DNA of 54,155 nucleotides from Acidobacteriota bacterium (GTDB lineage Bacteria > Acidobacteriota > Holophagae > Holophagales > Holophagaceae). The position numbers and the translations under genes were made by a program. Below the pieces are notes generated by a model. That model had not been told where the DNA came from, did no database searches, and saw only the letters and a program-made list of their open reading frames with translations. Of this stretch, positions 9,693 through 50,207 are shown one piece after another (position 1 is the first letter of the stretch; each line of letters opens with the position of its first letter). The stretch is taken from NCBI GenBank assembly GCA_018269025.1, contig JAFDVN010000071.1, positions 1-54,155 on the forward strand. Direction: 5' to 3'.

Positions 9693-9715
9693 ACTAGCTA
9701 TTTCTCGGACTTCCC

Positions 9716-10987
9716 ATGCTCGACCCCCACGCTCTGCGCACCGATCTCGACGCCCTCGTGGCGCGCCTCGCCGACCGCGGCTTCGCCTTTGACCGCGACA
9801 CCTATGGCCATCTGGAGTCCGAACGCCGCCGCGTGATCCAGGAGGCCGAAACGCTGAAGGCCGAGCGCAACAAGGTGAGCGACGAGGTGGCGAAGCTCAA
9901 GCGGGAGAAGCAGGACGCCTCCCATCTCATCGAGGCGCAGCGGACCGTGGGCGAAAAGCTGAAGGCGCTCGAACACGCCGAGAAGGAGGCCGATGCGGCC
10001 TTTCACGCCTTTCTCGCCGGGGTGCCCAATGTGCCCCATGCCAGTGTGCCTTCCGGAAAGAGCGAGCACGACAATGTGGAAGTGAAGAAGTGGGGACAGG
10101 CCCCCGCCATCGCGAAGCCCCTGGACCATGTGGAGCTGGGCACGAAGCTCGGCATCCTCGATCTGGACCGCGCGGCCAAGCTGAGCGGGGCGCGTTTCAG
10201 CGTGCTGAAAGGGCTCGGCGCCAAGCTGGAGCGAGCCCTCGCCGCCTTCATGCTCGATCGCCAGACGGAAGCGGGATACACCGAAGTCATCCCGCCCTAC
10301 CTCGTGAACGCCGACTCGCTCCAGGGCACGGGACAGTTGCCGAAATTCGAGCAGGACCTCTTCCAGGTGCCCCACGGCGAGTCGAAGCTCTACCTCATCC
10401 CCACGGCCGAAGTGCCCGTCACGAACCTCTACCGGGACGAGATTCTCGACGGCGCGACCCTGCCGCTCCGTCACTGCGCCTTCACGCCCTGCTTCCGCAG
10501 CGAGGCGGGCAGCTACGGCAAGGACACGAAGGGCATCATCCGCCAGCACCAGTTCCATAAAGTCGAACTCGTCACCTTCACCACGGCGGATGCTGCGGAA
10601 GCGGAGCTGGAACGGCTCACGGCGGACGCGGAAGCGATCCTCGAAGCCCTGGAGTTGCCCTACCGCCGCGTGCTGCTTTGCACCGGCGACATGGGTTTCA
10701 GCAGCCAGAAGACCTACGACCTCGAAGTGTGGATTCCTTCGCAGCAGACCTACCGCGAGATTTCGTCCTGCAGTTGGTTCGGCGATTTCCAAGCGCGCCG
10801 CGCGAACCTGAAATACCGTCCGAATGAACCGAAGGCGAAGGCGCAGTTGCTTCACACCTTGAACGGCAGCGGCCTCGCCGTGGGCCGCACCTGGGTCGCC
10901 GTGCTGGAGAATTACCAGCAGCCCGATGGCAGCATCCGCGTGCCGAAGGCGTTGGAGCCCTTCATGGGCTGCGAGGTCATCCGGTGA
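9716..10987 (+). CDS. serS: seryl-tRNA synthetase
   Basis: N-terminal coiled-coil arm, class II motifs (FRSEAGS.GKDT.G..R.HQF.KVE, LNGSGLAVGRT). Confidence 0.95.
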   Translation: MLDPHALRTDLDALVARLADRGFAFDRDTYGHLESERRRVIQEAETLKAERNKVSDEVAKLKREKQDASHLIEAQRTVGEKLKALEHAEKEADAAFHAFLAGVPNVPHASVPSGKSEHDNVEVKKWGQAPAIAKPLDHVELGTKLGILDLDRAAKLSGARFSVLKGLGAKLERALAAFMLDRQTEAGYTEVIPPYLVNADSLQGTGQLPKFEQDLFQVPHGESKLYLIPTAEVPVTNLYRDEILDGATLPLRHCAFTPCFRSEAGSYGKDTKGIIRQHQFHKVELVTFTTADAAEAELERLTADAEAILEALELPYRRVLLCTGDMGFSSQKTYDLEVWIPSQQTYREISSCSWFGDFQARRANLKYRPNEPKAKAQLLHTLNGSGLAVGRTWVAVLENYQQPDGSIRVPKALEPFMGCEVIR

Positions 10988-15822: not shown

Positions 15823-16005
15823 GGATCCCCTGGGAGATGCCCTTCGAGCCCAACGATTGGGCCAGGCCGCGATGGCGTCAAGGACGGAGGGGTCCGGAAG
15901 GGGGACCGGACCGGTGGGTATTTCCAAACCGGTGCTGGAGCGGAGGTTGGCTGCGGCGAAGGATGGGATACCCCGCTTCCGGGGCCGCTTTGTCCGGAGT
16001 CTTCC

Positions 16006-16440
16006 ATGAACCTCAGGTCTGGCCTCACCCTGTTCGGCCTCCTCGCGTGCCTCGCCTGTGGCGGGGGCGGCGGTGGATCGAGTTCGTCATCTTCCACGCC
16101 ACCCCCCGCGGGTCCACCCGCGAACACCGTTTATGTCGGCGGAGACAATGGGTACGGTGGCGCAACGATGACGTTCACGCCCTCAACCCTGAATGTGACG
16201 GCGGGAACCACCGTTACCTTCGTTTGGCAGGGGGGCACTCACAATGTCACCTCCTACGCGGTGAGCGGGTCGCCGACCTTCACCAATAGCGGCGACCACA
16301 GCAATGTTGGGGACAGCTTTCAGTACACCTTCGCCACGGCTGGGACCTACTACTACCGCTGCACCTATCACAGCACGGCCCAGGCCGATCCCAATAGCGT
16401 TGCCACGGGGATGATGATCGGCAAGGTGGTGGTGCAGTGA
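16006..16440 (+). CDS. cupredoxin (plastocyanin/pseudoazurin-like) lipoprotein
   Basis: Only the 3' part of track ORF 14416..16440 is credible. Start at MNLRSGLTLFGLLACLAC (lipobox). Type-1 Cu ligand pattern GGTHNV ... YRCTYH ... GMM. Confidence 0.8.
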   Translation: MNLRSGLTLFGLLACLACGGGGGGSSSSSSTPPPAGPPANTVYVGGDNGYGGATMTFTPSTLNVTAGTTVTFVWQGGTHNVTSYAVSGSPTFTNSGDHSNVGDSFQYTFATAGTYYYRCTYHSTAQADPNSVATGMMIGKVVVQ

Positions 16441-17749: not shown

Positions 17750-18681
17750 TGGCGCCACGGGTCGCCTTCCTTGGCACGCCCGCCGTGGCCGTGCCCGCCC
17801 TGCGCGCCTTGGCGGAATCCACGCGGGTTGATGCGGTCTTCTGCAATCCGGACAAGCCCGCCGGCCGTGGCCGCGCCCTCGCCGCGCCGCCGGTGAAGGA
17901 AGCCGCGTTGGAGTTGGGCCTCCAGATCCATCAACCCCTGCGATGGAAGGACCCGGCGTCGCGGGACCAGTGGGACGCGCTTCACATTGATCTCGCGGTG
18001 GTCGTAGCCTACGGGCACATCCTGCCCTCCTGGATGTTGGACTCGCTCAAGCTGGGTGCCTGGAATCTGCACTTTTCGTTGCTGCCAAGATGGCGCGGTG
18101 CGGCACCCGTCAATCACGCGATTTTCGCGGGCGACGCTGAAACGGGGGTCGCGCTCATGCGCATCACGCCCGGCCTGGATGAGGGCCCGGTGCTGGCCCT
18201 GAGCCGTCGGCCGATCCGAATGGCGGATGAAGCGGAAGGCCTGCTGACCGCGCTCGCCGAGGATGCGGGCGCGCTCCTGAAGGCGCACCTGCCTTCCCTG
18301 CTGGAGGGCTCTGCGCGACCCACGCCCCAAGTAGGCGAACCGACCTACGCTTCCAAGCTCTCCAAAGAGATGGCGCGGCTGGACGCCACCGCGCCCGCGC
18401 ACACGCTCCATCGCCAGGTGCGCGCCCTCCACCCCTGGCCCGGTTCCGAGCTGCCTGTGGAAGGGGCCGTTCTCAAAGTCATCGAGGTAGGCAGATTGAA
18501 GCCCTCCGCGGATGCCCCGGGCACGCTTCGTTGGGACAAGCACGGGGCCTGGCTTGCCTGTGGGGACGAACAAGCCCTGGAGCTCATCCGTCTCCAACGC
18601 CCCGGCAAGCCAGTCCAGCCCGCGCTTCAAGCGCTGCAGGTATTTGGCTCCAAAGGGGTTCTTGGTTGGAATCAAAAATAA
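17749..18681 (+). CDS. fmt: methionyl-tRNA formyltransferase
   Basis: TGATG overlap with def. FLGTP....L..L, NLHFSLLPRWRGAAP motif. Confidence 0.95.
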   Translation: MAPRVAFLGTPAVAVPALRALAESTRVDAVFCNPDKPAGRGRALAAPPVKEAALELGLQIHQPLRWKDPASRDQWDALHIDLAVVVAYGHILPSWMLDSLKLGAWNLHFSLLPRWRGAAPVNHAIFAGDAETGVALMRITPGLDEGPVLALSRRPIRMADEAEGLLTALAEDAGALLKAHLPSLLEGSARPTPQVGEPTYASKLSKEMARLDATAPAHTLHRQVRALHPWPGSELPVEGAVLKVIEVGRLKPSADAPGTLRWDKHGAWLACGDEQALELIRLQRPGKPVQPALQALQVFGSKGVLGWNQK

Positions 18682-18717
18682 GTGTTGCGACTCTTGCAAG
18701 TTATTAAGAATTAAGAA

Positions 18718-18745
18718 TTTACAACAATTATTATTTAGATATACT
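18718..18745 (+). promoter_or_regulatory. candidate sigma70-type promoter inside a strikingly AT-rich island
   Basis: TTTACA (18718-18723), 16-nt spacer, TATACT (18740-18745). It is embedded in TTATTAAGAATTAAGAATTTACAACAATTATTATTTAGATATACTAA, about 50 nt upstream of the lipoprotein ATG. Confidence 0.5.
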
Positions 18746-18796
18746 AACTGCCACCTTGGTCGCTTGTCGCGTTCAAGGGCTTTATGGCGGGCGAGC

Positions 18797-21622
18797 ATGC
18801 TAACGATGAGATCTTCGCTTTGGGTGGTACCGGCCCTTTGCATCGGTGTGCTGGGCTGTTCGGACAAGGCAGGAGCTTCGGAGGACTCGGCCCCCGCGAT
18901 CACGACCCAGCCGACGAGTGTGACGGTGACGCCGAACAGTGCAGCCTCCTTCTCCGTCACAGCGACCGGAGCAGCCCCTCTTACCTACCAATGGCGCAAG
19001 AACGCGGGGGCCATCGCCGGAGCGACTTCCAGCACCTACGCCATCACCTCGGCCCAGGCCGGAGATGCGGGGACTTACGATGTGGTGGTTTCCAACCCGA
19101 AAGGCAGCGCGAGGAGCAACGGCGCGACGCTGACGGTGAGCGCGGCGTTGTCCGCGCCGGTGATCACGACGCAACCCAGCGGGAAGAGTGTCACGGCGGG
19201 GAGCTCCGCGACCTTTACGGTAGCGGCGAGCGGAAACCCAGCCCCGACCTACCAGTGGCAGCGGAACAATGGCGGCGGATGGAACCCGGTCAGCGGGGCG
19301 ACGAGCGCGTCCTACTCCCTTTCCGGGGCGCAGGTCTCCGACAACGGAGCCCAGTTCCGGTGTGTGGCGACCAATAGCCAGGGCAGCGCGACGAGCAACG
19401 GTGCGACGCTGACGGTGAGCGCGGCGTTGTCGGCCCCGGTGATCACGACGCAACCCAGCGGGAAGAGTGTCACGGCGGGGAGCTCCGCGACCTTTACGGT
19501 GGCGGCGAGCGGAAACCCAGCCCCGACCTACCAGTGGCAGCGGAACAATGGCGGCGGATGGAACCCGGTGAGCGGGGCGACGAGCGGGTCCTACACGCTG
19601 TCCGGAGCCCAAGTGTCCGACAACGGAGCCCAGTTCCGGTGTGTGGCCACGAATAGCCAAGGCAACGCGACGAGCAATGGCGCGACGCTGACGGTCAGCG
19701 CGGCGGGCGCGTTGGCGCCGCCCGTGTTCACAGCCCAACCTGAGTCGCGATTGGCGGCGACGGGATCCTCCCCAACCTATGCGGTCACCGTGACCGGAAG
19801 CCCCACGCCGGCCCTCCAGTGGCAGCGCAGTTCGGATGGCACCACTTGGTCAGATATTGGCGGCGCGACGAGCACGACCCTCACCCTCGCGAATGTGACC
19901 GCCTCCAATTCGAATACCAAGGTGCGGTGCCTGGCGAGCAACAACCAGGGGACGGACATGAGTGATCCAGCCGTGCTCGTAACGCAGACGCCAGGAGGGA
20001 CGACCTACTATGTGTCCCCCTCTGGCAATGACAGCAACGATGGCCTCACCCTTGGGACGGCCTGGGCGACCATCTCCCATGCGGCGGATTCAAGCAGTCC
20101 CGTGGGTCCAGGCGACACGGTGTATGTAGCGGCGGGCACCTACAACGAGACGGTGGAGCTTGAAAAGGCAGGAACGCCCGGCAACCCCATCGTGTTCCAG
20201 GGCTACAAGACCACGCCGGGCGACGCACCCTTGAAGCTGGTGGATCGCGCAAATGCGTATACCGCCTTCAATGGGTTCGATATGCCTCTCATCAACGGGG
20301 GTGACCGTACGAGTGGCATCGGTCTGGATAGCCCCCATGGGAAGAATCTGGTGATTCGCAATTTCCAAATTCGGAATGTGGCCTATGGCGTGAATTTGGG
20401 GGACAGCACCCAGAACGCCGGGAGCAACTGGCTCGACAATGTGGGCGTCATGACCGTGGGTGATCCGTCGGATGATTATCAAGGCGAAGGCATCCTCATG
20501 GGGAGCATGGGAACCCGGTTCACCAACAGCAACATGGTGACGGATTGTCTGGTGGTGAACGCTTGCGCTGAAGGTATTGATGTGAACGGCACGGGGAATG
20601 TCCTGGTGGGTTGCAAGGTTTACTGCAACGACAACACGGACAACGCTCCAACGGATTACTACATCATGATCACGGGGGATTCGAACGCCGCGTACGCCTG
20701 TTACATCGAACGAGCGCCCGGCCTTTCCCACGCGGGCCATGGGCTCGGGGCCAAGACGAACGCGGAGCAAGTCGTGGACCAAGGCCTGAATCTCCCGGCC
20801 ATTTCAGCGAGATACAATCAATTCATCCATTGCACCGCGCGGAACATGGGCGAGTCCTTCTATGTGCGGCACCGCACGGCCCAGTACAACCTGTTCTATC
20901 GGTGTACGGCCATTGGGACCTATTCCGGTGCATCCCAGGCGGCTGAAGGAGAAGGGAATGGAATCGAAACGCGGGATGGCGCCAGCGACAATGTGTTCGA
21001 TGGGCTGATCGTCAAGAATTGTGATGCTGGCATCGAATTTCGAGACACGGTGGAAGATGGCGACACCATGAGTAATCCCCCGGGACATCCTGGGAACAAC
21101 AACCTCTACAAGAACTGCCTCATCCTGAATTGTCGCCTCGCGGTTGATTTTGACGATTACAGCGTGGCGTCCGACGCGGGGGACAACACCATCGCGGATT
21201 GCACCTTCTACAAGAACCGCTACTTGTTCGACTGCGGGCGGGAATGCAACAGCATGAAGTATGTTGGAAATATCTTTGAAGGAACCCTGCAGGACGGAGT
21301 CGGAGGGGCCTTCTTCTCGCCGAGTCACCCGACTTTCGACGGTGAGGTTATTCCCAACGGGGTGAATAGCTACTTCAAGAATTGTGATTTTCACAACATC
21401 GAAGGGGGCATGCCTTCTGGCTTTGTATCAGCTGCAAGCGGGTCTATCGCCTCAGACCCAATGTTTGTGGATCCGGCGAATCTGAACTTTCGTTTAACTC
21501 CGGGAAGCCCGTGCGTGGACAGCGGCCTTTCGGTGACTGGCGTTTCGACGGATCGAGACGGGATCGGGCGTCCCCAGGGCGGCACACCGGACATGGGTGC
21601 TTATGAGGCCCACACGCCCTGA
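18797..21622 (+). CDS. large surface lipoprotein: four Ig-like repeats + right-handed parallel beta-helix domain
   Basis: Start at MLTMRSSLWVVPALCIGVLGC (lipobox). About 93-aa repeats with TYQWQRN...GATS.SY.LSGAQVSDNGAQFRCVATNSQG.ATSNGATLTV. The C-terminal part has repetitive N/G/D-rich beta-helix-like turns and the ending GTPDMGAYE. Confidence 0.8.
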   Translation: MLTMRSSLWVVPALCIGVLGCSDKAGASEDSAPAITTQPTSVTVTPNSAASFSVTATGAAPLTYQWRKNAGAIAGATSSTYAITSAQAGDAGTYDVVVSNPKGSARSNGATLTVSAALSAPVITTQPSGKSVTAGSSATFTVAASGNPAPTYQWQRNNGGGWNPVSGATSASYSLSGAQVSDNGAQFRCVATNSQGSATSNGATLTVSAALSAPVITTQPSGKSVTAGSSATFTVAASGNPAPTYQWQRNNGGGWNPVSGATSGSYTLSGAQVSDNGAQFRCVATNSQGNATSNGATLTVSAAGALAPPVFTAQPESRLAATGSSPTYAVTVTGSPTPALQWQRSSDGTTWSDIGGATSTTLTLANVTASNSNTKVRCLASNNQGTDMSDPAVLVTQTPGGTTYYVSPSGNDSNDGLTLGTAWATISHAADSSSPVGPGDTVYVAAGTYNETVELEKAGTPGNPIVFQGYKTTPGDAPLKLVDRANAYTAFNGFDMPLINGGDRTSGIGLDSPHGKNLVIRNFQIRNVAYGVNLGDSTQNAGSNWLDNVGVMTVGDPSDDYQGEGILMGSMGTRFTNSNMVTDCLVVNACAEGIDVNGTGNVLVGCKVYCNDNTDNAPTDYYIMITGDSNAAYACYIERAPGLSHAGHGLGAKTNAEQVVDQGLNLPAISARYNQFIHCTARNMGESFYVRHRTAQYNLFYRCTAIGTYSGASQAAEGEGNGIETRDGASDNVFDGLIVKNCDAGIEFRDTVEDGDTMSNPPGHPGNNNLYKNCLILNCRLAVDFDDYSVASDAGDNTIADCTFYKNRYLFDCGRECNSMKYVGNIFEGTLQDGVGGAFFSPSHPTFDGEVIPNGVNSYFKNCDFHNIEGGMPSGFVSAASGSIASDPMFVDPANLNFRLTPGSPCVDSGLSVTGVSTDRDGIGRPQGGTPDMGAYEAHTP
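19132..19689 (+). repeat. tandem 279-bp duplication inside the lipoprotein gene (two near-identical Ig-like modules)
   Basis: GACGGTGAGCGCGGCGTTGTC... restarts exactly 279 bp later (19132 and 19411). Long identical runs; differences cluster in one about 40-bp patch. Confidence 0.9.
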
Positions 21623-33248: not shown

Positions 33249-34202
33249 CTATTCCCCCCCATGCACCTTCTTGATCATGTAGCGGGGTCGGTCGCGGACT
33301 TCGGTGTAGATGCGGCCGATGTATTCGCCGAGCAGGCCCAGCGCCAGGAACATGCAGCCCACGAAGAAGAAGAGGATGGCGAAGAGGGTGAACACGCCGT
33401 TCACCGTGCCTTCGGGGTGGACGAAGCGATAGATCAACAGGCCCAGCGAGAAGGCGAGGCTGATGCCACTGATGACGACGCCGAAGACGCTGAGCATTTG
33501 GAGCGGCAGCAGGCTGAAACTCGTCACGAGGTCGAACTGGAGGTTGATGAGCTTCCAGAGCCCGTACTTGCTATCCCCGGCGGCGCGCTCGGCGTGGGCC
33601 ACGGGCACCTCCGCGATGCGCTTGGCGAAGGAGTTGGCGAGGGCCGGGATGAAGGAGCTGCGCTCCTTGCAGAGCAGCATGGCGTCCACCACCTCGCGCC
33701 GGTAGGCCCGGAGCATGCAGCCGTAGTCATGGAGCTTCACGCCGGTGGTCCTCCGGGTGATGGCGTTGACGAGCTTGCTCGGCAGGCGGCGGAAGAGGGA
33801 ATCGTTCTCCTCCCGACCCTGCCGCCACCCGCCCACCACATCAAAGCCTTCCTCGATCTTGGCGACGAGCTTCGGGATCTCTTCCGGCGGGTTCTGGAGG
33901 TCGGCGTCCAGGGTGACGATGATTTCGCCCTTGGCCTCCGCCAGCGCGCCGAAGACGGCGGCGTGCTGGCCGTAGTTGCGATTGAACTCCACGACCCGGA
34001 TGCGGGGTTCGGCCTTGGCCAGGTCCAGGAGCAGCTTGAGGCTGGCGTCCTTGGAGCCGTCATCGGTGAAGATCACCTCCCAGCCCCGGGCGTCGAAGGG
34101 CGCGAGGGCCGCGGACAGGCGTCCCCAAAGGGCCGGGATGTTGTCCTGCTCGTTGTAGATGGGGATGGTGACGCTCAGGAAGGGCGTGGGTTCAAGGGCC
34201 AT
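33249..34202 (-). CDS. family 2 glycosyltransferase (polyprenyl-phosphate sugar transferase, ArnC/DPM1-like)
   Basis: Start at MALEPTPFLSVTIPIYNE (ATG 34202; the longer track ORF is antisense to the regulator gene). DDGSKD, TLDADLQNPPEEIP (DxD), two C-terminal TM helices. Confidence 0.85.
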   Translation of the reverse strand: MALEPTPFLSVTIPIYNEQDNIPALWGRLSAALAPFDARGWEVIFTDDGSKDASLKLLLDLAKAEPRIRVVEFNRNYGQHAAVFGALAEAKGEIIVTLDADLQNPPEEIPKLVAKIEEGFDVVGGWRQGREENDSLFRRLPSKLVNAITRRTTGVKLHDYGCMLRAYRREVVDAMLLCKERSSFIPALANSFAKRIAEVPVAHAERAAGDSKYGLWKLINLQFDLVTSFSLLPLQMLSVFGVVISGISLAFSLGLLIYRFVHPEGTVNGVFTLFAILFFFVGCMFLALGLLGEYIGRIYTEVRDRPRYMIKKVHGGE

Positions 34203-34257
34203 GGGGCCTCCGAGGCTCAATTCTAGTAGAATCCTGCGAACCGCCCCTGGAGTGCCC

Positions 34258-34977
34258 ATGTCCCAGCCCCACATCCTGTTGGTCGAGGACGAACTGAGCC
34301 TTGCCGAGGGCATCAAACTCAACCTGGAGATGGAGGGGCTCGCCTGCACCTGGATCCCGAGGGGCGACGAGGCGCTCAAGCGCATCCTCGCCGAACCGTT
34401 CGACCTCGTGCTCCTGGATGTGATGCTGCCGGGCATGGACGGCTTCAGCGTCTGCGAGCGGGTGCGGGACGCCAAGAACTTCACACCCATCCTTTTCCTC
34501 ACGGCCAAGAACACCGAGGATGATCGCGTTCACGGCTTCGAGACCGGCGGCGACGACTACTTGGGCAAGCCCTTCCAGGTGCGCGAGCTGCTCACCCGCG
34601 TGCGCGCCATCCTGCGCCGCGAGGCCTGGTACAAGAACCGCACCCTGGGCAGCCGTCAGGCCTTCGGCCCCCATTGGGTGGACTTCGACAACTTCTGCGG
34701 CGAGGGGCCGAACGGCGCCTTCCAGCTTGGCGTGAAGGAATGCATGATCCTGAAGCTCCTCATGGAGAAGCCGGGCGCGGTCGTGAGCCGCCAGGAGATC
34801 CTGGACAAGGTCTGGGGTGAAGATTCCTACCCGACGACGCGCACCGTGGACAACTTCATCGTGCGCCTCCGCCGCAGCATGGAGCAGGACGCCCACCACC
34901 CCCGCTGGATCCACACCATCCGCTCCGTCGGCTACCAGTTCGACCCCGAAGGCAAGCAGCGCAAGGGCGAAGAGTGA
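34258..34977 (+). CDS. OmpR/PhoB-family response regulator (no kinase gene adjacent)
   Basis: ILLVEDE, LVLLDVMLPGMDG, LTAK, DDYLGKPF receiver motifs. C-terminal winged helix (RTVDNFIVRLRRSME..IHTIRSVGYQF). Confidence 0.9.
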   Translation: MSQPHILLVEDELSLAEGIKLNLEMEGLACTWIPRGDEALKRILAEPFDLVLLDVMLPGMDGFSVCERVRDAKNFTPILFLTAKNTEDDRVHGFETGGDDYLGKPFQVRELLTRVRAILRREAWYKNRTLGSRQAFGPHWVDFDNFCGEGPNGAFQLGVKECMILKLLMEKPGAVVSRQEILDKVWGEDSYPTTRTVDNFIVRLRRSMEQDAHHPRWIHTIRSVGYQFDPEGKQRKGEE

Positions 34978-35332: not shown

Positions 35333-35381
35333 AGAGGGGCCCTTTGCGGGCCCCTCTGTGTCTCTGCGTCTCCGTGGTTCC
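35333..35381. repeat. GC hairpin (GAGGGGCCC-TTTGC-GGGCCCCTC) followed by right arm of the inverted repeat
   Basis: Hairpin at about 35333-35355 sits between the convergent stops. The right IR arm at 35354-35381 abuts the peptidase stop. Confidence 0.7.
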
Positions 35382-37516
35382 TATTTCTTGGGCGCCGCCG
35401 TCGGATCCAGGTCCCGGCTCTTGCCCCAGGCTTCGACGCGGAGCATCTGGTCTTCGAAGGATTCGCCGGTCTCGACCTTCACATCCTTCAGGATCTGGCG
35501 GCCGTTCATGTCCTCCACCACGGGCACGAGCTTGGGGAAGACGAAGGCCTTCTCCTTGGGGAGCTGCAGGGCTTCCCGGCGGGCCTTGGCGTCGTCGTGC
35601 CAGGCCTTGTTTACCTTCGTGCCGTACTGGCCGAAGAAGGCCTCGGCGCCAGCCTGATCGCCCATGGCCTTGATCGTCTGGAGCTTGGTCAGCACCTCGC
35701 CCACGCCCTCGCGGGCCTTGGCGAGGTCGGTGATCTCGACATACGCGTGGCCGTCCACCTGATCCACCTGGACGCCCTTCTGGTTGTCCACGAGGTAGTT
35801 CAGCACGAGCTGTCGGCCACGGAGGTGCGCCTCGTGGATGGTGTCGCCTTCCACCAGCCCGTTGGCCATGAGCTGGCCCGTGAGGTACTGAAGCAGCATG
35901 GCTTTGTAGGCGTCCGCGTGATCGGCGGCGGACACCGCGCCGATCTCTTCGAGCTTGGGATCAGGGAACTGGTAGAGCGCGACGCAATCGGCGCGGCACT
36001 CCTCCAACGCGGAGTAGGTGGGACCGATCTTGGTGGCGGGATCGGCGCCCGCGAGCGACGCGTCCGGCTGACCGGAGCCGTGGCCGATGACCTCGTGCAT
36101 GTACACGACCCACTGGCGGGCGAGGGAGCCGTCCTTGCGGATCAGGTCCTGATCCTCCGCGCGGTAGGAAGCCTTGATGCCGGCCTCGCGGGTAGCGGCG
36201 CTGGAGGCGCCTTCCACATTGAGCAGGACGACATTCTTGCTGCCGTAGTCCTTGCGGATGTCCGCGTAGTTGGGGAGGTTGTAGGCCGCCGGGCTGATCG
36301 GCCCCGCGTCCCCGGTCTCCATCAGCACATTGACGATGCTGGCGACGGGGGGCGTGATCTTGTCCCGCTTCCACTTGGCGTCCCAGGGCATTTTCGCTTC
36401 GAAGTACGCGGCGTTCTGGCTGAGCTTATCAATGACGGTGGAGTCAGACTTGTAGCTGACATTGGCCTCGTAGGCGCCGATGACGGAGCGGGGGTCCTTG
36501 TAGACCTCGTAGAAGCCGTTGAGGTAGTCCACGGTGCTCTTGGTCTGGAGCCAGGCGATGCTGTGTTTCTTGAAAGTGGCCTCGTCGCCGGTCTTGAAGA
36601 AGGCAATGAGGTCTTCCAGGGCCTGCTTCTGATTCGCGTTGGCCTCGAAACGGGTCTTCACGGTGCCATCGGGCATCGTCACCTTGGCGATCTCGTCTTC
36701 CACATAGGGGAGGGCCTTCTGGAGCCAGTAGACGACGGTATCGAGCTGGGCGCCGTAGACGCCGCCCACCTTGAAGACCTGGGCCACGGCCTTCTTGCCC
36801 TTCTTGGCGAAGCGGACATTGACCTGAGCCTGGGTGGCTTCCGGCAGAGCCTGGATCGCCTTGAGCGTGAGGCCCTTGTCGTAGAGGCCGTTGGATGAGG
36901 TCGCGATGGGATCCACGCCCGGCACCTGATTCACCTGGATGGGGTCCACCTTCGGGTCGAAGATGTAAGGCTTGAGCTGGGCCAGCGCCGCCATTCCGCC
37001 CCCCTTCACGGCGAACTTGGCGTGCTTCTTCACCGCGATCTGGACGGCCTTCTTGAGCTGATCGTAGGTGAGGTTGGCCGGGACGAACTTGGTGGCGTGG
37101 GTGTGGCTGTAATTGCCGTGGTTGGCCCACACGAGTTTCAGGTATTCGCCGAGCCCGGCGCGGGTGGCCTCGTCCAGCGCGTCCTTCTTGGACCAGACGC
37201 CTTCCAGGAGGTTCTTGATGTCGAGGGCCTTGGGGTGGTTCTGGAGGTAGGCGATCTCATCCCCGGCCAGGGCGGCGCGGTAGAGGTAGTAAGCGAATTT
37301 GCGCTGGGTGGGCCGCAGCTTGTCGAAGCCAGGCGCTTCCACGGGCACGAGCCACATGTCCCGGCCATCCGCGCCGAGCTTTTCGATGGCGGCGGGAGCC
37401 TGGGCTGGAGTCTGGGCGGACGCCGGCGCGGGAGTCGGCGCGGGAGCCGGGACTGGAGCTTGGGCGAAGAGGGTGGTGCCTGCGGCTAGGGCCGCCATGA
37501 TCCAGGCGCGCTGCAT
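35381..37516 (-). CDS. dipeptidyl-peptidase III (M49 family), secreted
   Basis: Signal peptide MQRAWIMAALAAGTTLFAQA. HEVIGH and EECRAD zinc motifs characteristic of M49. Confidence 0.85.
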   Translation of the reverse strand: MQRAWIMAALAAGTTLFAQAPVPAPAPTPAPASAQTPAQAPAAIEKLGADGRDMWLVPVEAPGFDKLRPTQRKFAYYLYRAALAGDEIAYLQNHPKALDIKNLLEGVWSKKDALDEATRAGLGEYLKLVWANHGNYSHTHATKFVPANLTYDQLKKAVQIAVKKHAKFAVKGGGMAALAQLKPYIFDPKVDPIQVNQVPGVDPIATSSNGLYDKGLTLKAIQALPEATQAQVNVRFAKKGKKAVAQVFKVGGVYGAQLDTVVYWLQKALPYVEDEIAKVTMPDGTVKTRFEANANQKQALEDLIAFFKTGDEATFKKHSIAWLQTKSTVDYLNGFYEVYKDPRSVIGAYEANVSYKSDSTVIDKLSQNAAYFEAKMPWDAKWKRDKITPPVASIVNVLMETGDAGPISPAAYNLPNYADIRKDYGSKNVVLLNVEGASSAATREAGIKASYRAEDQDLIRKDGSLARQWVVYMHEVIGHGSGQPDASLAGADPATKIGPTYSALEECRADCVALYQFPDPKLEEIGAVSAADHADAYKAMLLQYLTGQLMANGLVEGDTIHEAHLRGRQLVLNYLVDNQKGVQVDQVDGHAYVEITDLAKAREGVGEVLTKLQTIKAMGDQAGAEAFFGQYGTKVNKAWHDDAKARREALQLPKEKAFVFPKLVPVVEDMNGRQILKDVKVETGESFEDQMLRVEAWGKSRDLDPTAAPKK

Positions 37517-37593
37517 GGGTCCTCCGTGGGGAAAGGCCCATCATGCCATAGGGGGTGGGAAGCGCCGCCTTGAGATCCTAAGCGGTCCGCGTG

Positions 37594-38889
37594 TCAGTCT
37601 TTCGCCGGGGTGGGTTCCTGGGTGTGCGTCCGCATGAGCACCGAGACGGCGATGACACGATCCTCCGCGCCCCGCACGGGGGCAAAGGTCAGGTCCGCCT
37701 GGAAAGGTTCCCCCCGGCGCAGCACTTCGCCATCGGGGATGCGGACGATTTCGCCCGCGCCCACCTTGGTGAGCAGGTCCGGCAGGAGGGCGAGGCCCCC
37801 ATCCACCATGAGGCGGGAGAAGGGCTGGCCGAGTGCCTCGGCGCGGGGGAGGGCGAAGATCGCCTCGGCCGCGGCGTTCCAGGTGAGGATGCGGCCGTCG
37901 GCGCCGAAGGAGGCGAGCCCATCCCCCAGGTTGTGGAGCAGGCTTTCCAAGTAGCGGCGGGTCTTCTGGGTTTCCTGATGACTGCGCTCGAGCTGGGCGT
38001 AGAGCTGGCCCATCTCCTGGTTGCGCTGTTCCAGTTCCTCCTTCGCGGAGCGCAGCTCCGAGTAGAGGCGTGCCGTCTCCATGCTGGATTTGAGCGCGTC
38101 CTCCAGCAGGTCCTGGGTTTCCGCGCGACCATCGGGTTGCAGGTCGTCAATGGTCACGCCCGCGTGGCGCAGGATCACCGCGGGCGGTTGCTCGGGCGCC
38201 GTGCCCGGCGCGGCAGCGGTGCCCACCTCTCGCAGCGCCTGGCTCAGGTTGCTGTCAATGAGCGCCAGCATGGCGTCGAAGTCCTTCACCTTCTTGTCGA
38301 GGTTGAACTTCTTGAAGGTGTAGTCCACCGTCTCCCGGGTGATGGCGCGGAAGGTTTCCGCCACGCCGATGCCTTGAGAGGCGATGGCCTCGAAGAAGGG
38401 CGCGTTGCGGAAGTTGAGACGGCGGTTCATCACGCCAACGGCGAGGGCATCCGGCAAGTCCCGCTTGTTGAACTGGAGCACCAGGGGGATCTGCTTGATG
38501 TTCAGGCGGTTCGCGTTGAGGTTGTGATAGAGGTTGCTGAGCGAATCCACATTGTCCTGCATCTTCGCTTCGGCCGAATCCGCCACGAAGACGACGCCAT
38601 CGGCGCCCCCCAGCACCACGCGGCGGCTGGCGTCGTACTGGATCTGACCGGGCACGGTGTAGACCTGCAGGTGGATCGCGTTGCCGTAGATGTAGCCGAG
38701 GTTGATGGGCAGCAGGTCGAAGAAGAGGGTGCGGTCTTCCTGGGTGTTCACGCTGAACATCTCGCCGCGCTGTGCCTCACCGCAGAGGGCGTGGAGCTGC
38801 TGGAGGTTCGTCGTCTTGCCCGAAAGCCCCGGCCCGTAATAGACCAGCTTCAGCAGGATCTCGTTGGCTCGCGTGTTGAATTGGACCAT
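37594..38889 (-). CDS. MglA-family Ras-like GTPase fused to C-terminal coiled coil and PAS domain
   Basis: N-terminal about 190 aa: LVYYGPGLSGKTTNL, DRTLFFDLLP, YTVPGQ, FVADS, QFNKRDL (all MglA hallmarks). Then a heptad-rich helix (ETARLYSELRSAKEELEQRNQEMGQLYAQLERS) and PAS-like LGDGLASFGADGRILTWNAAAEAIFALPRAEALGQPF. Confidence 0.85.
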   Translation of the reverse strand: MVQFNTRANEILLKLVYYGPGLSGKTTNLQQLHALCGEAQRGEMFSVNTQEDRTLFFDLLPINLGYIYGNAIHLQVYTVPGQIQYDASRRVVLGGADGVVFVADSAEAKMQDNVDSLSNLYHNLNANRLNIKQIPLVLQFNKRDLPDALAVGVMNRRLNFRNAPFFEAIASQGIGVAETFRAITRETVDYTFKKFNLDKKVKDFDAMLALIDSNLSQALREVGTAAAPGTAPEQPPAVILRHAGVTIDDLQPDGRAETQDLLEDALKSSMETARLYSELRSAKEELEQRNQEMGQLYAQLERSHQETQKTRRYLESLLHNLGDGLASFGADGRILTWNAAAEAIFALPRAEALGQPFSRLMVDGGLALLPDLLTKVGAGEIVRIPDGEVLRRGEPFQADLTFAPVRGAEDRVIAVSVLMRTHTQEPTPAKD

Positions 38890-39056
38890 GGCGGCAGGGG
38901 AAGGGATCAGCCTAGCACGGGGAAAAAACCGGGGACCTTCCCCCCTCTCAACGGCAAGGTGCCTGTTTGGATCAAATCCTGGAGGGGGGAGAGTCGGGGG
39001 CCTTTTCGGACCTTCATTGGGCTAACATGAATGGTTCTACGAATTCCTGGTAGCCC

Positions 39057-39266
39057 ATGAGCGTCCCCTCCCATGTCGCGATTATTTTCTCGGTATCGGC
39101 TTTGCCGATACGCGAGACCTCCCCTGCCAGCGGTGCATCGGCCGCTAGGGGGAGTACCTTGTGAGCATTCCGACCCATGTGGCCATCATCTTCTCGGTAT
39201 CGGCTCCGCCGATACGCGAGACCTCGCGCTAGGTTGGGCCTTGTCCGATCCAAGGGTGTCTTCCCG
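39057..39266 (+). repeat. two tandem about 105-bp units, each beginning with a copy of the uppS start (mini-ORFs) followed by a hairpin
   Basis: Unit A 39057-39160 starts ATGAGCGTCCCCTCCCATGTCGCGATTATT. Unit B 39161-39266 starts GTGAGCATTCCGACCCATGTGGCCATCATC. The real uppS at 39267 starts ATGAGCATTCCGACCCATGTCGCCGTCATT. Hairpins TCTCGGTATCGGC-NNN-GCCGATACGCGAGA at 39088-39117 and 39192-39221. Confidence 0.9.
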
Positions 39267-39953
39267 ATGAGCATTCCGACCCATGTCGCCGTCATTTTGG
39301 ACGGCAACGGCCGCTGGGCTGCCCAGCGGGGGCAGGCGCGCATTAAAGGGCACAAGGCCGGGGTCCGGGCGGTGGAGGCCATCCTGGACGAGGCCTCGGA
39401 CCTGGGCATCCAGCATTTGAGCCTCTATGCCTTCAGCACCGAGAATTGGAAGCGGCCCGCCTTCGAGGTGACGGCGCTCATGGCGCTGCTCCGCATGTAC
39501 TTGCGGATGTTCGTGCCCAAGCTTCTCGCCAAGGGCACCCGCTTCCATCACCTGGGCAGCGTGGAGGGTCTTCCCGCCGGGGTGGTGTCGGATCTCCACT
39601 GGCTGGAGGCGAAGACGGCCCATGGGACGGGCATGACCTTTCACCTGGCCGTGAATTACGGCTCCCGCCTGGAAATCGCCCAAGCGGCCGCCCGCTGCGT
39701 GGCGGACGGATTGAGGCCGGATCAGGTGGATGAGGCCGCCCTCCAGGCCCGGCTCTGGACGGCGGGCGTGCCGGATGTGGATCTGCTCATCCGCACCAGC
39801 GGCGAGCACCGCATCTCCAACTTCCTGCTCTGGCAGGCGGCCTATGCCGAGTTGCACCTGACGGACATCCTTTGGCCCGATTTCGGGCCCGCCCAGCTCC
39901 GCGAGGCCCTCGCCGACTTCGGGGCCCGGGAGCGGCGTTTTGGCGGGTTGTAG
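39267..39953 (+). CDS. uppS: undecaprenyl diphosphate synthase
   Basis: MSIPTHVAVILDGNGRWA, FSTENWKRP, and RTSGEHRISNFLLWQAAYAEL motifs. Confidence 0.95.
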   Translation: MSIPTHVAVILDGNGRWAAQRGQARIKGHKAGVRAVEAILDEASDLGIQHLSLYAFSTENWKRPAFEVTALMALLRMYLRMFVPKLLAKGTRFHHLGSVEGLPAGVVSDLHWLEAKTAHGTGMTFHLAVNYGSRLEIAQAAARCVADGLRPDQVDEAALQARLWTAGVPDVDLLIRTSGEHRISNFLLWQAAYAELHLTDILWPDFGPAQLREALADFGARERRFGGL

Positions 39954-48518: not shown

Positions 48519-50207
48519 TCATTCCTTCGCGAGACCGCCACCTTGGCGGAGCTTTTCGCCCAGTTCGTCCAGAAGCGCGGCCAGGCCCTTGAGCCGGTCG
48601 CCCCGGTCCGCGAGTTGGCCCTGGAGGGTCTGCTTTTCCTTTTCGAGGGCGGTGGAGGCGTCCTGGGCGGCCTTGTGCTGATCCTTGGTGCGACTCAGCT
48701 CGGCCTCCTTGAGATCCAGGCCCTTCATGAGCTCCATGCGTTCCTGGTCGTGGCGGGCCTTGTCTTCCTCGAGCTTCTGCTTGGCGTCCTTCGCGTCCCG
48801 CATCGCGCTTTCGATGTCCTTGGCGAGGGTGGCCTTGGTGTCTTCGGCTTCCTTGAGGGCGGCGGCGCTCTTCGCGGCCTTCTCTTCGGCGGCCTTGAGC
48901 TTGGATTCGGCGTCGGTGAGGGAATCCTGCATTTGCGCGAGCTGACGGCCCTGGCCCCGCACGGTGGCTTCGAGCCCCGTCACTTCGTCCTTCAGGGCCG
49001 TGACCTTGTCCTTGTGCTGGGTCAGCTCTTCACTGGCCTTGGCATGGGCCTTTTCCAGATCCGCCTGCTTGGCGCTCATCTTCTCCAGGCTTTCGTTGAG
49101 CTGGCTGGCTTCCGTCTTCCGCTTCTCCAGCTCGGACTCCGCCGCCTCGGCGCGGCTCTGGAAGGCCGACATCTCCAGATTCTGGCTCTGAAGCTTGTCC
49201 CGTTCCCGGAGCAGGTCAATGGTGCGGGTGGTCTTTTCGGAGAGTTGCTGGTTGAGCTGGTCCGCCTGCTGGATGAGCTGCTGGCGTTCCGTGATGGCGT
49301 CCTTCAACTGCTGGCGCAACGCGTCCGCGTCCCCGGACTCTTCGGCTTTGGCCAGCGCGGCCTGGGCCGCCTCCAGTTTCGCCTGGAGGTCGGAAGATTC
49401 CTTCTTGCCGCGCTCCAGCTCGTCCAAGTTCAGGGTGACGCTATTGAGCTGGCGCTGGAGTTGGACGAGGGCCTCTTCCGTCTCCTTGAGTTTCTGGCTC
49501 TTGGCGTTCAGCTCTTCCTGGAGGTGGGCCACCTGACCCGCGGCGAGATCGGGCTTGGCCGTCCCCGGAGGGGCGGTGGCATGGGCCGGGGATGGGACCG
49601 GTGCCGGTGAAGGGGCCGGCGCCGGAGCTGCCTTGGGAGCAGGCACGGAGGCGAGGGCCGCCTGGATCTGCGCGGCGGACACGGCCACGGTGCCCGCGGC
49701 GTGATCCTGCGGCGCAGGCGCGCCTCCCGATTCCAGATCGGTCTTCAGGTCTCCGAGCCAGTCGCCGCCCAGATCCCCGCTGAGATCGCCGTCATCCGCC
49801 AGGTCGCCGAGCGGGTTGTCGGGATCCACGCCCCGGGGCGGCACGAGGGGGCGCAGAGCCTCCACGAGGTTCACGGGCGGAATGGGCTTCATCAGATAGA
49901 GGTCGGCGCGGCCCTTGAGGCTCTGGTGGCGCTTGTATTCGTCCTCGGTGGCCTTGGCGCTGATGAGCGCGACCTTCACCCCGCCCAGCTTGGAGCTGCG
50001 GCGGATGGAGGCGCAGAGGGCATAGCCCCGGTTGTCGGCGATCTCGACGGAGATGAGCACACAGGCAAAGGCTCCGCTCTCCAGTCGCTGCATGGCCGCG
50101 TCCGGCGCGTTCGCCACCTCCACCTCGAAGGCAGCTTCCAGGCCCGCCTGGTGCTCCTTCAGGAAGGCGCGGTCGTTGTCCACGATGAGTAGGCGCTGGC
50201 CTGACAT
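48519..50207 (-). CDS. FrzS/AglZ-like protein: pseudo-receiver domain + Pro/Ala linker + about 330-aa coiled coil
   Basis: Receiver-like fold (LLIVDND..., LYLMKPI) with Ser at the phospho-acceptor position (ACVLISVEIADNRGY). Compare M. xanthus FrzS as I recall it (not checked): VVLAVDLSAGQNGY. The remainder is continuous heptad-rich E/K/Q/L sequence. Confidence 0.8.
   Translation of the reverse strand: MSGQRLLIVDNDRAFLKEHQAGLEAAFEVEVANAPDAAMQRLESGAFACVLISVEIADNRGYALCASIRRSSKLGGVKVALISAKATEDEYKRHQSLKGRADLYLMKPIPPVNLVEALRPLVPPRGVDPDNPLGDLADDGDLSGDLGGDWLGDLKTDLESGGAPAPQDHAAGTVAVSAAQIQAALASVPAPKAAPAPAPSPAPVPSPAHATAPPGTAKPDLAAGQVAHLQEELNAKSQKLKETEEALVQLQRQLNSVTLNLDELERGKKESSDLQAKLEAAQAALAKAEESGDADALRQQLKDAITERQQLIQQADQLNQQLSEKTTRTIDLLRERDKLQSQNLEMSAFQSRAEAAESELEKRKTEASQLNESLEKMSAKQADLEKAHAKASEELTQHKDKVTALKDEVTGLEATVRGQGRQLAQMQDSLTDAESKLKAAEEKAAKSAAALKEAEDTKATLAKDIESAMRDAKDAKQKLEEDKARHDQERMELMKGLDLKEAELSRTKDQHKAAQDASTALEKEKQTLQGQLADRGDRLKGLAALLDELGEKLRQGGGLAKE

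What the first reader, a model, noticed from the sequence alone, without database searches (positions are those of the whole stretch)
37594..38889. MglA-family polarity GTPase fused to a coiled coil and a PAS sensor domain, with no MglB partner nearby
Seen: the first about 190 residues carry every MglA hallmark (LVYYGPGLSGKTTNL P-loop, DRTLFFDLLP switch region, YTVPGQ, QFNKRDL). The same ORF then continues for about 240 residues through a linker and a heptad-rich helix (ETARLYSELRSAKEELEQRNQEMGQLYAQLERS) into a PAS-like module (LLHNLGDGLASFGADGRILTWNAAAEAIFALPRAEALGQPFSRLM...).

Known: characterised MglA proteins are single-domain GTPases of about 195 aa. They are usually encoded in an operon with the roadblock/LC7 GAP MglB. 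Neither neighbour here resembles MglB: a secreted M49 peptidase lies 78 bp downstream and a repeat-filled spacer lies upstream.

Inference: a small GTPase covalently coupled to a ligand- or redox-sensing PAS domain would be a signal-gated polarity or motility switch. I am not aware of this architecture having been studied.
Basis: partly seen in the sequence, partly recalled or inferred. Interest (0 to 1): 0.78.

Follow-up and report, generated by a model that had tools for sequence, protein, structure and literature searches.

The report
MglA-type GTPase fused to PAS sensor
The gene encodes a bacterial Ras-like "polarity" GTPase joined through a coiled coil to a PAS sensor domain. It is the stripped-down member of a widespread, undescribed Acidobacteriota family whose full-length forms are also two-component signalling kinases, so a small-GTPase switch and phosphorelay signalling sit in one protein.

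Summary
Window 37594-38889 (-) encodes a 431-aa protein with four parts:
- an MglA-class G domain (PDB MglA E=2e-54; predicted fold TM 0.90 to MglA)
- a disordered linker
- a 64-residue heptad helix
- a PAS domain with no cofactor signature.

The identical protein was assembled in at least four independent runs. No MglB-like ORF exists in the 54-kb window or in the 18 related loci searched.

It belongs to a large, uncharacterised Acidobacteriota (mostly Holophagae) family with a G-coiled coil-PAS core. At the same syntenic locus, relatives carry a complete hybrid histidine kinase (794 aa), a His-less pseudokinase (~660 aa) or a receiver domain (557 aa). The window allele lost the receiver by a roughly 350-bp net deletion but stays under purifying selection (dN/dS 0.03 for G, 0.05-0.23 for PAS).

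A distant sub-clade lies 15-16 bp downstream of pilin genes in type IV pilus clusters. That gives circumstantial support to an MglA/SofG-like motility or polarity role.

The key survey of prokaryotic small GTPases excluded every sequence over 240 aa, and I found no paper describing this architecture. Verdict: a real, new variant of a known kind. The mechanism is inferred, not shown.

The parts
37594..38889 (-). Complete ORF, 431 aa: MglA-like G domain, linker, coiled coil, PAS
   Evidence: The identical product is on 14 independent contigs.
38305..38889 (-). G domain (aa 1-195), MglA class. It has the P-loop GPGLSGKT, the switch-I Arg53/Thr54, the G3 motif TVPGQ (Thr78, Gln82) and the G4 motif NKRD (141-144).
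   Evidence: PDB MglA E=2e-54. Foldseek to 6izw/6h5b/6h17 gives TM 0.90-0.92 normalised to the target. These residues are invariant or nearly so across 121 and 99 homologues. dN/dS is about 0.025.
38119..38304 (-). Linker (aa 196-257): a short helix at 204-218, then an Ala/Pro-rich segment predicted to be disordered
   Evidence: pLDDT below 50 for residues 221-255. Length and sequence vary among relatives.
37927..38118 (-). Single long helix (aa 258-321) with heptad periodicity, presumed to be a parallel dimeric coiled coil leading into the PAS domain
   Evidence: 3.5-residue period, power 75. dN/dS is about 0.04.
37618..37926 (-). PAS domain (aa 322-424), with no Cys and no family-conserved His
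   Evidence: Pfam PAS 45 bits and PAS_4 42 bits. Model pLDDT is about 88-90. Conserved WNxAAExxFG core. dN/dS is 0.05-0.23 among short forms.
37594..37617 (-). Seven-residue C-terminal tail (EPTPAKD) plus the stop codon created after loss of the receiver domain
   Evidence: The tail is similar in the other short-form alleles (P0001, L014, L016).
37571..37633 (-). Deletion scar. 56 nt (37578-37633) replace 408 nt of receiver-domain coding sequence in the orthologue L001 (11260-11667). A relic of the ancestral last codons and stop (GATCTGAAG changed to GATCTCAAG) lies at about 37571-37577.
   Evidence: pairwise alignment, first seen
38890..39020 (-). Conserved 5' leader/promoter region of the gene, including a short G/C hairpin plus T6 at 38931-38945. 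Function unknown.
   Evidence: conserved in window, L016, L001 and L007. The hairpin is not above chance in the scan, and there is no credible Rfam match (single hit E=0.65, 14.7 bits against a gathering score of 55).
35381..37516 (-). Neighbour, not part of the protein: a secreted-type M49 peptidase gene 77 nt downstream on the same strand. It is syntenic in most Holophagaceae orthologous loci but absent from the hybrid-kinase locus L030.

Best explanation
The gene encodes a cytoplasmic, probably homodimeric, MglA-class molecular-switch GTPase. A parallel coiled coil tethers it to a cofactor-less PAS domain. It is the minimal member of an undescribed Acidobacteriota family whose conserved core is G domain, coiled coil and PAS. 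The fullest form of the family is a hybrid histidine kinase (G-CC-PAS-DHp-CA-REC). At this locus the output modules have been shed stepwise, and the window lineage lost its receiver domain by a roughly 350-bp net deletion. The G domain is by far the most constrained part, while the phosphorelay modules are repeatedly lost or inactivated. I therefore infer that the G domain is the working end: in its GTP state it engages downstream partners, as MglA and SofG do. In this reading the coiled coil and PAS (plus REC or kinase in longer relatives) set its nucleotide state, dimer geometry or location. The most likely cellular target is type IV pilus function or cell polarity. Shown here: architecture, family membership, intact catalytic residues, the deletion history, purifying selection, absence of a nearby MglB, and T4P linkage in one sub-clade. 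Inferred: dimerisation, direction of signal flow, effector identity, and independence from MglB.
For: The architecture and MglA-class G domain rest. The catalytic and switch residues Lys25, Arg53, Thr54, Thr78, Gln82, Asn141, Lys142 and Asp144 are invariant across the 99 other MglA-like representatives and invariant or at least 90% conserved in the 121-sequence family alignment where fragments do not gap the column. The PAS-fused G domains form one clade separate from M. xanthus MglA, which is 47% identical. One locus carries four architectures: 794-aa hybrid (His and REC sites intact), 663-aa kinase-like, 557-aa REC, 431 aa. The H-box His is kept in only 11 of 83 relatives that have a DHp-like helix, mostly hybrids, and none of the 8 relatives scanned has a HisKA hit. 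So phosphotransfer is not the conserved function. dN/dS is 0.025 for G, 0.04 for the helix and 0.05-0.23 for PAS in short forms, and the short form is kept in at least three lineages (window, L014, L016). Independent short forms of about 400-430 aa occur in sub-clades B and C. In L022, L024 and L028 the gene starts 15-16 bp after a pilin gene, behind PilB-type or T2SSE ATPases and (in L022 and L024) PilC. No MglB-like ORF was found in the window or in the 18 loci searched, and precomputed Pfam lists show no Robl_LC7 in the later loci. A FrzS-like REC plus coiled-coil protein lies 10 kb away and is syntenic in close relatives.
Against: There is no experimental data for any family member. The T4P linkage is seen only in sub-clade C (about 40% full-length identity, 60% in the G domain). 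The window locus has no pilus genes, and its conserved neighbours are housekeeping genes (uppS, cdsA, dxr, rseP), an M49 peptidase, an OmpR-type regulator and a GT2 glycosyltransferase. In bacterial signalling proteins N-terminal domains are usually inputs, which favours the opposite direction of signal flow. The inter-domain geometry of the model is unreliable (pTM 0.47), and no dimer was modelled. An MglB encoded elsewhere in the genome cannot be excluded. The tree is a neighbour-joining tree without support values.
Confidence: 0.5

Rival explanations
1. The GTPase is the input. The G domain is a guanine-nucleotide-sensing (or GTP-timer) input module that controls the C-terminal kinase or receiver through the coiled coil and PAS, as N-terminal sensor domains do in ordinary sensor kinases. 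The truncated window protein would then act only as a modulator, for example by PAS- or coiled-coil-mediated heterodimerisation with another kinase.
For: The domain order (N-terminal G, then helix-PAS-DHp-CA-REC) matches the usual input-to-output order. The fullest form at the same locus has intact His and Asp phospho-sites. An OmpR-type regulator is conserved two genes away. A single-domain REC follows the Acanthopleuribacter gene.
Against: Most kinase-type relatives lack the phospho-acceptor His and none of those scanned has a HisKA hit. Output modules were lost independently in several sub-clades, while G-CC-PAS persists under strong purifying selection. A pure input domain with no output would not be expected to be the most conserved part of the protein.
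Confidence: 0.25
2. It is a conventional MglA with regulators in trans. The G domain is regulated by an MglB-type GAP and RomR/RomX-type GEF encoded elsewhere in the genome. The coiled coil and PAS only provide localisation or scaffolding.
For: The G domain is 47-48% identical to M. xanthus MglA, and its best structural match is MglA in the MglB complex. The intrinsic Arg finger and catalytic Gln that MglB repositions are conserved. RomR homologues have been reported in Acidobacteria (PMC4546325). Orphan MglA-family proteins such as SofG and Bdellovibrio MglA are functional (PMC4316618).
Against: No mglB lies next to any of about 25 family loci, whereas 404 of 488 MglA-clade genes are coupled to mglB in the 2014 survey. 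Guzzo et al. found mglA and mglB in tandem whenever both were present.
Confidence: 0.2
3. The truncated window allele is a decaying remnant or an assembly/frameshift artefact with no function of its own.
For: It has lost about 126 residues (the receiver domain) relative to its closest orthologues, and a relic of the old stop codon is still recognisable.
Against: The identical protein is found on 14 contigs, the four shown coming from four different runs. The same short form is kept in two other species-level MAGs. dN/dS is 0.10 overall and 0.02 between L014 and L016, and the PAS is no more relaxed than in REC-bearing forms. Equivalent short forms exist independently in other sub-clades.
Confidence: 0.03

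Closest known systems
MglA (Myxococcus xanthus, Thermus thermophilus), Group 1 MglA family of Wuichet & Sogaard-Andersen
   Same: Same G-domain fold (TM 0.90) and 47-48% identity. It shares the MglA-specific G3 motif TxxGQ, the intrinsic switch-I Arg finger and catalytic Gln, and the same N-terminus. One sub-clade is genomically linked to type IV pili, a system MglA controls.
   Different: It is 431 aa rather than about 195 aa, with a covalently attached coiled coil and PAS, plus kinase or REC in relatives. No adjacent mglB was found in any locus examined. It forms its own clade.
SofG (M. xanthus MglA paralogue that positions PilB/PilT)
   Same: It is an orphan MglA-family GTPase without a coupled MglB, extended beyond the G domain, and linked to type IV pili (PMC4316618).
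   Different: SofG is 239 aa, and from my own knowledge its extension is N-terminal. It has no PAS or coiled coil. No SofG sequence was compared here.
Actinobacterial conservons / AGPS (CvnA kinase-like, CvnB roadblock, CvnC, CvnD GTPase)
   Same: An MglA-family GTPase works together with a histidine-kinase-like protein. It is the only described system that pairs these two signalling logics (PMC4316618; PMC13343842).
   Different: Conservons are four separate proteins that include an MglB-type roadblock and CvnC. They are restricted to Actinomycetota, and the kinase is membrane-bound. Here the GTPase and kinase modules are on one cytoplasmic polypeptide, with no roadblock or CvnC nearby, and the family is in Acidobacteriota.
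Cytoplasmic PAS-containing (hybrid) sensor histidine kinases, e.g. ThkA and NtrB/AtoS types
   Same: The helix-PAS-DHp-CA(-REC) layout of the long relatives is the same. The PAS S-box core is conserved. The nearest PDB PAS is the Thermotoga sensor protein 3a0r (E=9e-4), and the best NCBIfam partial hits are to AtoS and WalK.
   Different: The N-terminal sensor is replaced by a Ras-like GTPase. Most relatives have lost the phospho-acceptor His, and the window protein has no DHp, CA or REC at all.
Roco proteins (Roc-COR multidomain Ras-like GTPases)
   Same: They are multidomain proteins in which a Ras-like G domain is regulated in cis and acts as a dimer.
   Different: There is no COR domain. 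The Pfam Roc hit is far below its cut-off (14 bits against 27). The G domain is MglA-class, not Roc.

Membership tests
MglA family of prokaryotic Ras-like GTPases | Ras-like G-domain fold with G1-G5 motifs and closest similarity to MglA | tested here: met
   PDB MglA E=2e-54. Foldseek TM 0.90 to 6izw/6h5b. Pfam Ras and Arf hits are above cut-off.
MglA family of prokaryotic Ras-like GTPases | MglA-type catalytic set: G3 TxxGQ instead of DxxGQ, an intrinsic Arg finger in switch I, and a catalytic Gln | tested here: met
   YTVPGQ (Thr78, Gln82) and DRTLFF (Arg53, Thr54) are in the sequence. These positions are invariant or nearly so in 121 and 99 homologues.
MglA family of prokaryotic Ras-like GTPases | Single-domain protein of about 150-240 aa (the criterion used in PMC4316618) | tested here: not met
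   The protein is 431 aa with three further structural modules. Such long sequences were excluded from that survey.
MglA family of prokaryotic Ras-like GTPases | Coupled (adjacent) mglB / Roadblock-LC7 GAP gene | tested here: not met
   There is no MglB-like ORF in the window or in L001-L018, and no Robl_LC7 in the Pfam scans or precomputed lists. The rest of the genome could not be searched.
MglA family of prokaryotic Ras-like GTPases | GTP binding with MglB-stimulated hydrolysis | not testable with these tools
   This needs biochemistry.
MglA Group 1 (sensu Wuichet & Sogaard-Andersen) | Phylogenetic placement within Group 1 | tested here: inconclusive
   The NJ tree puts PAS-fused G domains in their own clade, apart from M. 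xanthus MglA. The published groups were not reconstructed, and the tree has no support values.
PAS domain superfamily | Profile match above the curated threshold and a PAS fold | tested here: met
   PF00989 45.1 bits (cut-off 22.6), PF08448 42 bits and TIGR00229 27.8 bits. The model shows a five-strand sheet plus helices at pLDDT about 88-90.
Cofactor-binding PAS classes (LOV, PYP, FixL-type haem) | Conserved Cys (LOV, PYP) or proximal His (FixL) | tested here: not met
   The window PAS has no Cys, and no family column has more than 30% Cys or His. FixL similarity is limited to the N-terminal S-box, at E of about 0.02.
Two-component histidine kinase / hybrid kinase | DHp helix with phospho-acceptor His, HATPase_c catalytic domain and (for a hybrid) REC | tested here: not met
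   The window protein ends 7 residues after the PAS. These features are present in the orthologue P0121. The His is missing in 72 of 83 relatives with a DHp-like helix.
Actinobacterial conservon / AGPS | Four-gene set: cvnA (kinase-like), cvnB (roadblock), cvnC (DUF742), cvnD (GTPase) | tested here: not met
   No roadblock gene or CvnC-like gene lies nearby, and the lineage is different (Holophagaceae MAGs).
Roco (Roc-COR) GTPases | Roc G domain followed by a COR dimerisation domain | tested here: not met
   The Roc hit is 14 bits against a cut-off of 27, and there is no COR hit.

The most novel reading that the evidence does not exclude
G-coiled coil-PAS proteins are self-contained, MglB-independent GTPase switches. 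The parallel coiled coil holds two MglA-type G domains together, so hydrolysis is triggered by dimer geometry (a GAD-like mechanism). That geometry is set by the PAS domain, and in longer relatives by His-Asp phosphorylation. This would wire two-component signalling directly into a Ras-like switch that controls type IV pili or polarity across Holophagae and related Acidobacteriota.
Probability: 0.2. Interest if true: 0.8.

Novelty: new variant of a known kind. Interest (0 to 1): 0.6.

Why it matters
Bacterial Ras-like GTPases are treated as single-domain switches controlled in trans by MglB, RomR/RomX, or chemosensory and two-component proteins. In this family the switch and the two-component modules sit on one polypeptide. 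It also comes as a natural deletion series at a single locus: hybrid kinase, pseudokinase, receiver-only and core-only forms. That gives a ready-made system for asking how phosphorelay and PAS signals are transmitted to a small GTPase, or from it. It also lets one ask whether an MglA-type GTPase can cycle without MglB. It gives a first handle on pilus or polarity control in the abundant but poorly studied Holophagae. There is a practical point too: annotation pipelines label these proteins 'PAS domain S-box protein', 'response regulator' or 'ADP-ribosylation factor-like protein', and the reference survey excluded them by length. The family is therefore currently invisible.

Tried and rejected
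- **Frameshift or assembly artefact:** rejected. The identical ORF is on 14 contigs, and the four shown come from four different runs.
- **Pseudogene:** rejected by dN/dS and by retention in three lineages.
- **MglB nearby:** HMM and phmmer with validated MglB probes found nothing with E below 1.
- **HisKA domain in kinase-type relatives:** no Pfam hit at E of 0.1 or better in the 8 scanned. I then located the DHp-like helix by eye and tabulated the H-box column.
- **rRNA operon as the cause of the low-GC stretch at 16-21.6 kb:** rejected. Rfam finds only one tRNA, and the stretch encodes def, fmt and a 1036-aa Ig-repeat protein.
- **Riboswitch or leader RNA upstream of the gene:** no credible Rfam hit. 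The hairpin plus T-run is not above the shuffle expectation.
- **Upstream repeats as a regulatory array for this gene:** rejected. They are tandem copies of the uppS 5' end.
- **PAS ligand class from solved relatives:** uninformative. The best hit is E=9e-4 to a Thermotoga sensor PAS.
- **Inter-domain packing from the AlphaFold model:** not interpretable (pTM 0.47, disordered linker).
- **Taxon names for the T4P-linked sub-clade:** none on record.
- **Apparent rarity of single-domain proteins:** the top 150 representatives for the G domain are nearly all long. This may partly reflect how cluster representatives are chosen, so I do not use it to claim that single-domain MglA is rare.
Full report

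Yes. Its codon-position GC (0.68/0.40/0.88) is typical of the window's genes.

Pfam places Ras (27.2 bits) and Arf (25.0 bits) on residues 66-187. It places PAS (45.1 bits, cut-off 22.6) and PAS_4 on residues 314-424. NCBIfam adds the generic sensory_box model but no specific family.

Against all PDB sequences the top hits are M. xanthus MglA (E=1.9e-54, residues 5-185) and T. thermophilus MglA (E=2.5e-50). The next hits are Arf and Arl proteins at E of about 1e-4.

An AlphaFold2 model built on 121 homologues (mean pLDDT 74.5) shows:
- a G domain (residues 1-194)
- a disordered Ala/Pro-rich linker (221-255)
- one 64-residue helix (258-321)
- a confident PAS fold (324-421).

Foldseek puts the G domain on MglA crystal structures at TM 0.90, with the MglA-GTPgammaS-MglB complex as the best match. 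No PDB entry covers the whole protein: TM normalised to the query is 0.42 or less.

The helix is a genuine heptad helix. The family hydrophobicity profile peaks sharply at period 3.5 (power 75 against 16 or less elsewhere), and the window sequence beats shuffles at P=0.019.

The identical 431-aa product was called on 14 contigs, and the four loci shown come from four different sequencing runs. It is also on record in several archives. The fusion and its stop codon are therefore not assembly artefacts.

**2. Is there an MglB partner nearby?**

No. I validated an M. xanthus MglB probe (100% identical to PDB 6h5b_B) and recovered the T. thermophilus MglB core. I then searched every six-frame ORF of 60 aa or more in the window and in 18 related loci, using both phmmer and a two-sequence HMM. 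All hits had E above 1.

Pfam scans of the window's ORFs show no Roadblock/LC7. Precomputed Pfam lists for the later loci show none either. I could not search the rest of the genome.

**3. What is it really?**

It is the minimal member of a large family. A database search returned 120 listed relatives, all carrying the same N-terminal G domain followed by PAS. Those with taxon names are from Holophagaceae, Holophaga, Ca. Geothrix, Acanthopleuribacter pedis, Sulfidibacter corallicola and unclassified Acidobacteriota. They are annotated only as 'PAS domain S-box protein', 'response regulator' or 'ADP-ribosylation factor-like protein'.

The closest relatives (77-88% identity) are 557-573 aa and carry an extra C-terminal receiver domain. 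The 65%-identity tier is about 650-663 aa with a HATPase_c domain. Others combine HATPase_c and REC.

These are orthologues, not paralogues. The same synteny holds for all four forms: the 431-aa form, the 557-aa REC form, the 663-aa kinase-like form and the 794-aa full hybrid. In each case uppS-cdsA-dxr-rseP lies divergent on one side, and an OmpR-type regulator and a GT2 glycosyltransferase lie on the other.

The hybrid P0121 keeps the H-box His (LFHEVANRLTP) and the REC residues DD, D, T and K. In contrast, only 11 of 83 relatives with a DHp-like helix keep the His. Those 11 are mainly the hybrid forms, and the kinase-only forms have N, D, T, E or K at that position. None of the 8 relatives scanned matches Pfam HisKA.

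The family therefore looks like an ancestral MglA-domain hybrid kinase that has repeatedly degenerated into pseudokinase, receiver-only and core-only forms.

**4. How did the window allele arise?**

A pairwise alignment with the REC-bearing orthologue L001 shows homology up to window 37634, resuming at 37577. In between, 408 nt of receiver coding sequence are replaced by 56 unalignable nucleotides that contain the new stop. The old terminal codons and stop survive as a non-coding relic (GATCTGAAG changed to GATCTCAAG). The leader of the downstream M49 gene is 93% conserved.

The same short form (432 aa, similar tail) occurs in two other species-level MAGs.

Nei-Gojobori dN/dS against these alleles:

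| Region | dN/dS |
|---|---|
| G domain | 0.026-0.027 |
| Helix | 0.04 |
| PAS | 0.20-0.23 |
| L014 vs L016, whole gene | 0.02 |
| L014 vs L016, PAS only | 0.045 |

The PAS is no more relaxed than between two REC-bearing forms, where it is 0.35. The truncated gene is therefore maintained by selection.

**5. Family structure and genomic context**

A neighbour-joining tree of G domains (no support values) puts the PAS-fused proteins in essentially one clade. It is separate from M. xanthus MglA, which is 47% identical. The clade has four sub-clades:
- **A:** the window group.
- **B:** short forms of about 410-420 aa, followed within 46-57 bp by a GT2 glycosyltransferase. That gene also sits two genes away at the window locus.
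- **C:** short forms that start 15-16 bp after a pilin gene. The pilin is preceded by PilB-type (MshEN+T2SSE) or FHA-T2SSE ATPases and, in L022 and L024, PilC. A fourth member of C is a 700-aa hybrid next to a GGDEF gene.
- **D:** pseudokinase forms of about 630 aa in Acanthopleuribacteraceae-type genomes, with a single-domain REC 1.1 kb downstream.

The window itself has no pilus genes. However, a 562-aa REC plus long coiled-coil protein lies 10 kb away at 48519-50207. Its receiver domain has M. xanthus FrzS (2gkg, E=3.7e-7) as its second-best PDB match. It is syntenic in close relatives.

**6. How does it most likely work?**

Shown:
- The G domain keeps all MglA catalytic and switch residues.
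- The G domain is the most constrained module.
- G-coiled coil-PAS is the invariant core, while phosphorelay modules are dispensable.
- The PAS has no Cys and no conserved His, so it is not a LOV-, PYP- or FixL-type sensor. Solved PAS relatives give no hint about a ligand.

Inferred:
- The protein is a parallel dimer through the heptad helix, as in PAS kinases.
- The G domain is the effector-binding output, as in MglA and SofG.
- The PAS (plus REC or kinase in relatives) modulates its nucleotide cycle or geometry.
- The likely target is type IV pili or polarity, judging from the sub-clade C operons and the FrzS-like neighbour.

I put this at about 0.5. The main rival (0.25) reverses the flow and makes the G domain an input to the phosphorelay. 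A second rival (0.2) is a conventional MglA cycle with MglB and RomRX encoded elsewhere. RomR homologues have been reported in Acidobacteria (PMC4546325).

**7. Comparison with what is known**

The reference survey of prokaryotic small GTPases found 488 MglA-clade sequences, 404 of them coupled to mglB. It explicitly dropped the 39 sequences longer than 240 aa from further analysis (PMC4316618).

Full-text searches that combined MglA with PAS, histidine kinase, fusion, multidomain or Holophagae genus names found no description of this architecture.

The nearest functional analogue is the actinobacterial conservon (AGPS). It pairs an MglA-family GTPase with a kinase-like protein, but as four separate proteins that include an MglB-type roadblock.

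The window protein meets the fold and catalytic-motif criteria for the MglA family. It fails the single-domain and mglB-coupling criteria. It is not itself a histidine kinase, a Roco protein or a conservon component.

**8. A wider point seen on the way**

An exhaustive search with the G domain alone found 1818 cluster representatives at E of 1e-30 or better. Of the best 150, 147 are longer than 240 aa and carry the G domain at the N-terminus. Of 99 scanned, most have proline-rich tails with no Pfam match. Only a few carry PAS (4), GAF (4), HATPase_c (4), REC (3) or HisKA (1).

Multidomain MglA-like proteins are therefore numerous and unstudied. The way cluster representatives are chosen may inflate this impression.

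**9. Verdict**

This is not a unique GTPase-PAS fusion but the core-only end of a natural degeneration series. The series belongs to a widespread, unannotated family that merges an MglA-type switch with two-component signalling. One branch of the family is embedded in type IV pilus operons.

It is a new variant of known kinds. Interest is moderate to high (0.6), and the mechanism is still inferential.

Noticed in passing
window 39043-39298 (+); compare L001, L007, L016, L013 at about 9600-10010: There is a tandem triplication (period 104-106 bp) of the 5' end of uppS. Each unit carries a degenerate copy of the uppS start (ATGAGCATTCCGACCCATGT = MSIPTHV) and a palindrome GTATCGGC-N3-GCCGATAC. 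Copy number varies between relatives: 3 in the window, 2 in L001 and L007, 1 in L016 and L013.
   Followed up: partly
window 48519-50207 (-): A 562-aa protein has an N-terminal receiver domain, an Ala/Pro-rich linker and a coiled coil of about 330 residues. M. xanthus FrzS is the second-best PDB match of its receiver (2gkg, E=3.7e-7). By eye, the phospho-acceptor position appears to be Ser rather than Asp. It is syntenic in L001, L003 and L006. It may be a FrzS-like pilus or polarity adaptor.
   Followed up: partly
L022 4454-9245; L024 1326-7922; L028 5833-9242: These are type IV pilus clusters (PilB-type or FHA-T2SSE ATPase, PilC in L022 and L024, a TPR protein in L024, and a pilin) that end in a G-coiled coil-PAS gene 15-16 bp after the pilin. 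A divergent STAS gene lies upstream in L022 and L024. DivIVA lies about 3 kb downstream in L022 and L028. The taxon is unknown.
   Followed up: partly
relatives P0017-P0042 and P0060-P0112 (alignment A3, column 575): The kinase-type relatives have a DHp-like helix and HATPase_c but have replaced the phospho-acceptor His with N, D, T, E or K. They are probably pseudokinases. The His is retained mainly where a REC is also present.
   Followed up: yes
representatives P0121-P0267: A large number of 250-790-aa proteins have an N-terminal MglA-like G domain and mostly proline-rich C-terminal extensions with no Pfam match. A few carry GAF, HisKA or HATPase instead of PAS.
   Followed up: partly
window 33249-34202 (-) and 34159-34977 (+): A GT2 glycosyltransferase and a divergently oriented OmpR-type response regulator are conserved next to the locus in L001, L002, L003 and L030. 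In sub-clade B (L019, L020, L026, L027) the GT2 gene directly follows the G-PAS gene. This recurring association is unexplained.
   Followed up: no
window 18512-21622 (+): A 1036-aa protein with multiple eukaryote-type immunoglobulin (Ig_3, I-set) repeats lies in the lowest-GC stretch of the window (0.587 against about 0.66).
   Followed up: no
window 38931-38945 (-): A short G/C hairpin followed by T6 lies about 40 nt upstream of the start codon, inside a leader conserved in four loci. It is not above chance in the scan and has no credible Rfam match.
   Followed up: partly
window 14326-15927 (-) and 14416-16440 (+): Two long ORFs overlap on opposite strands. One is a GntR-aminotransferase regulator. 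The other has a plastocyanin/azurin-type copper-binding domain near its C-terminus. Gene boundaries here are unresolved.
   Followed up: no
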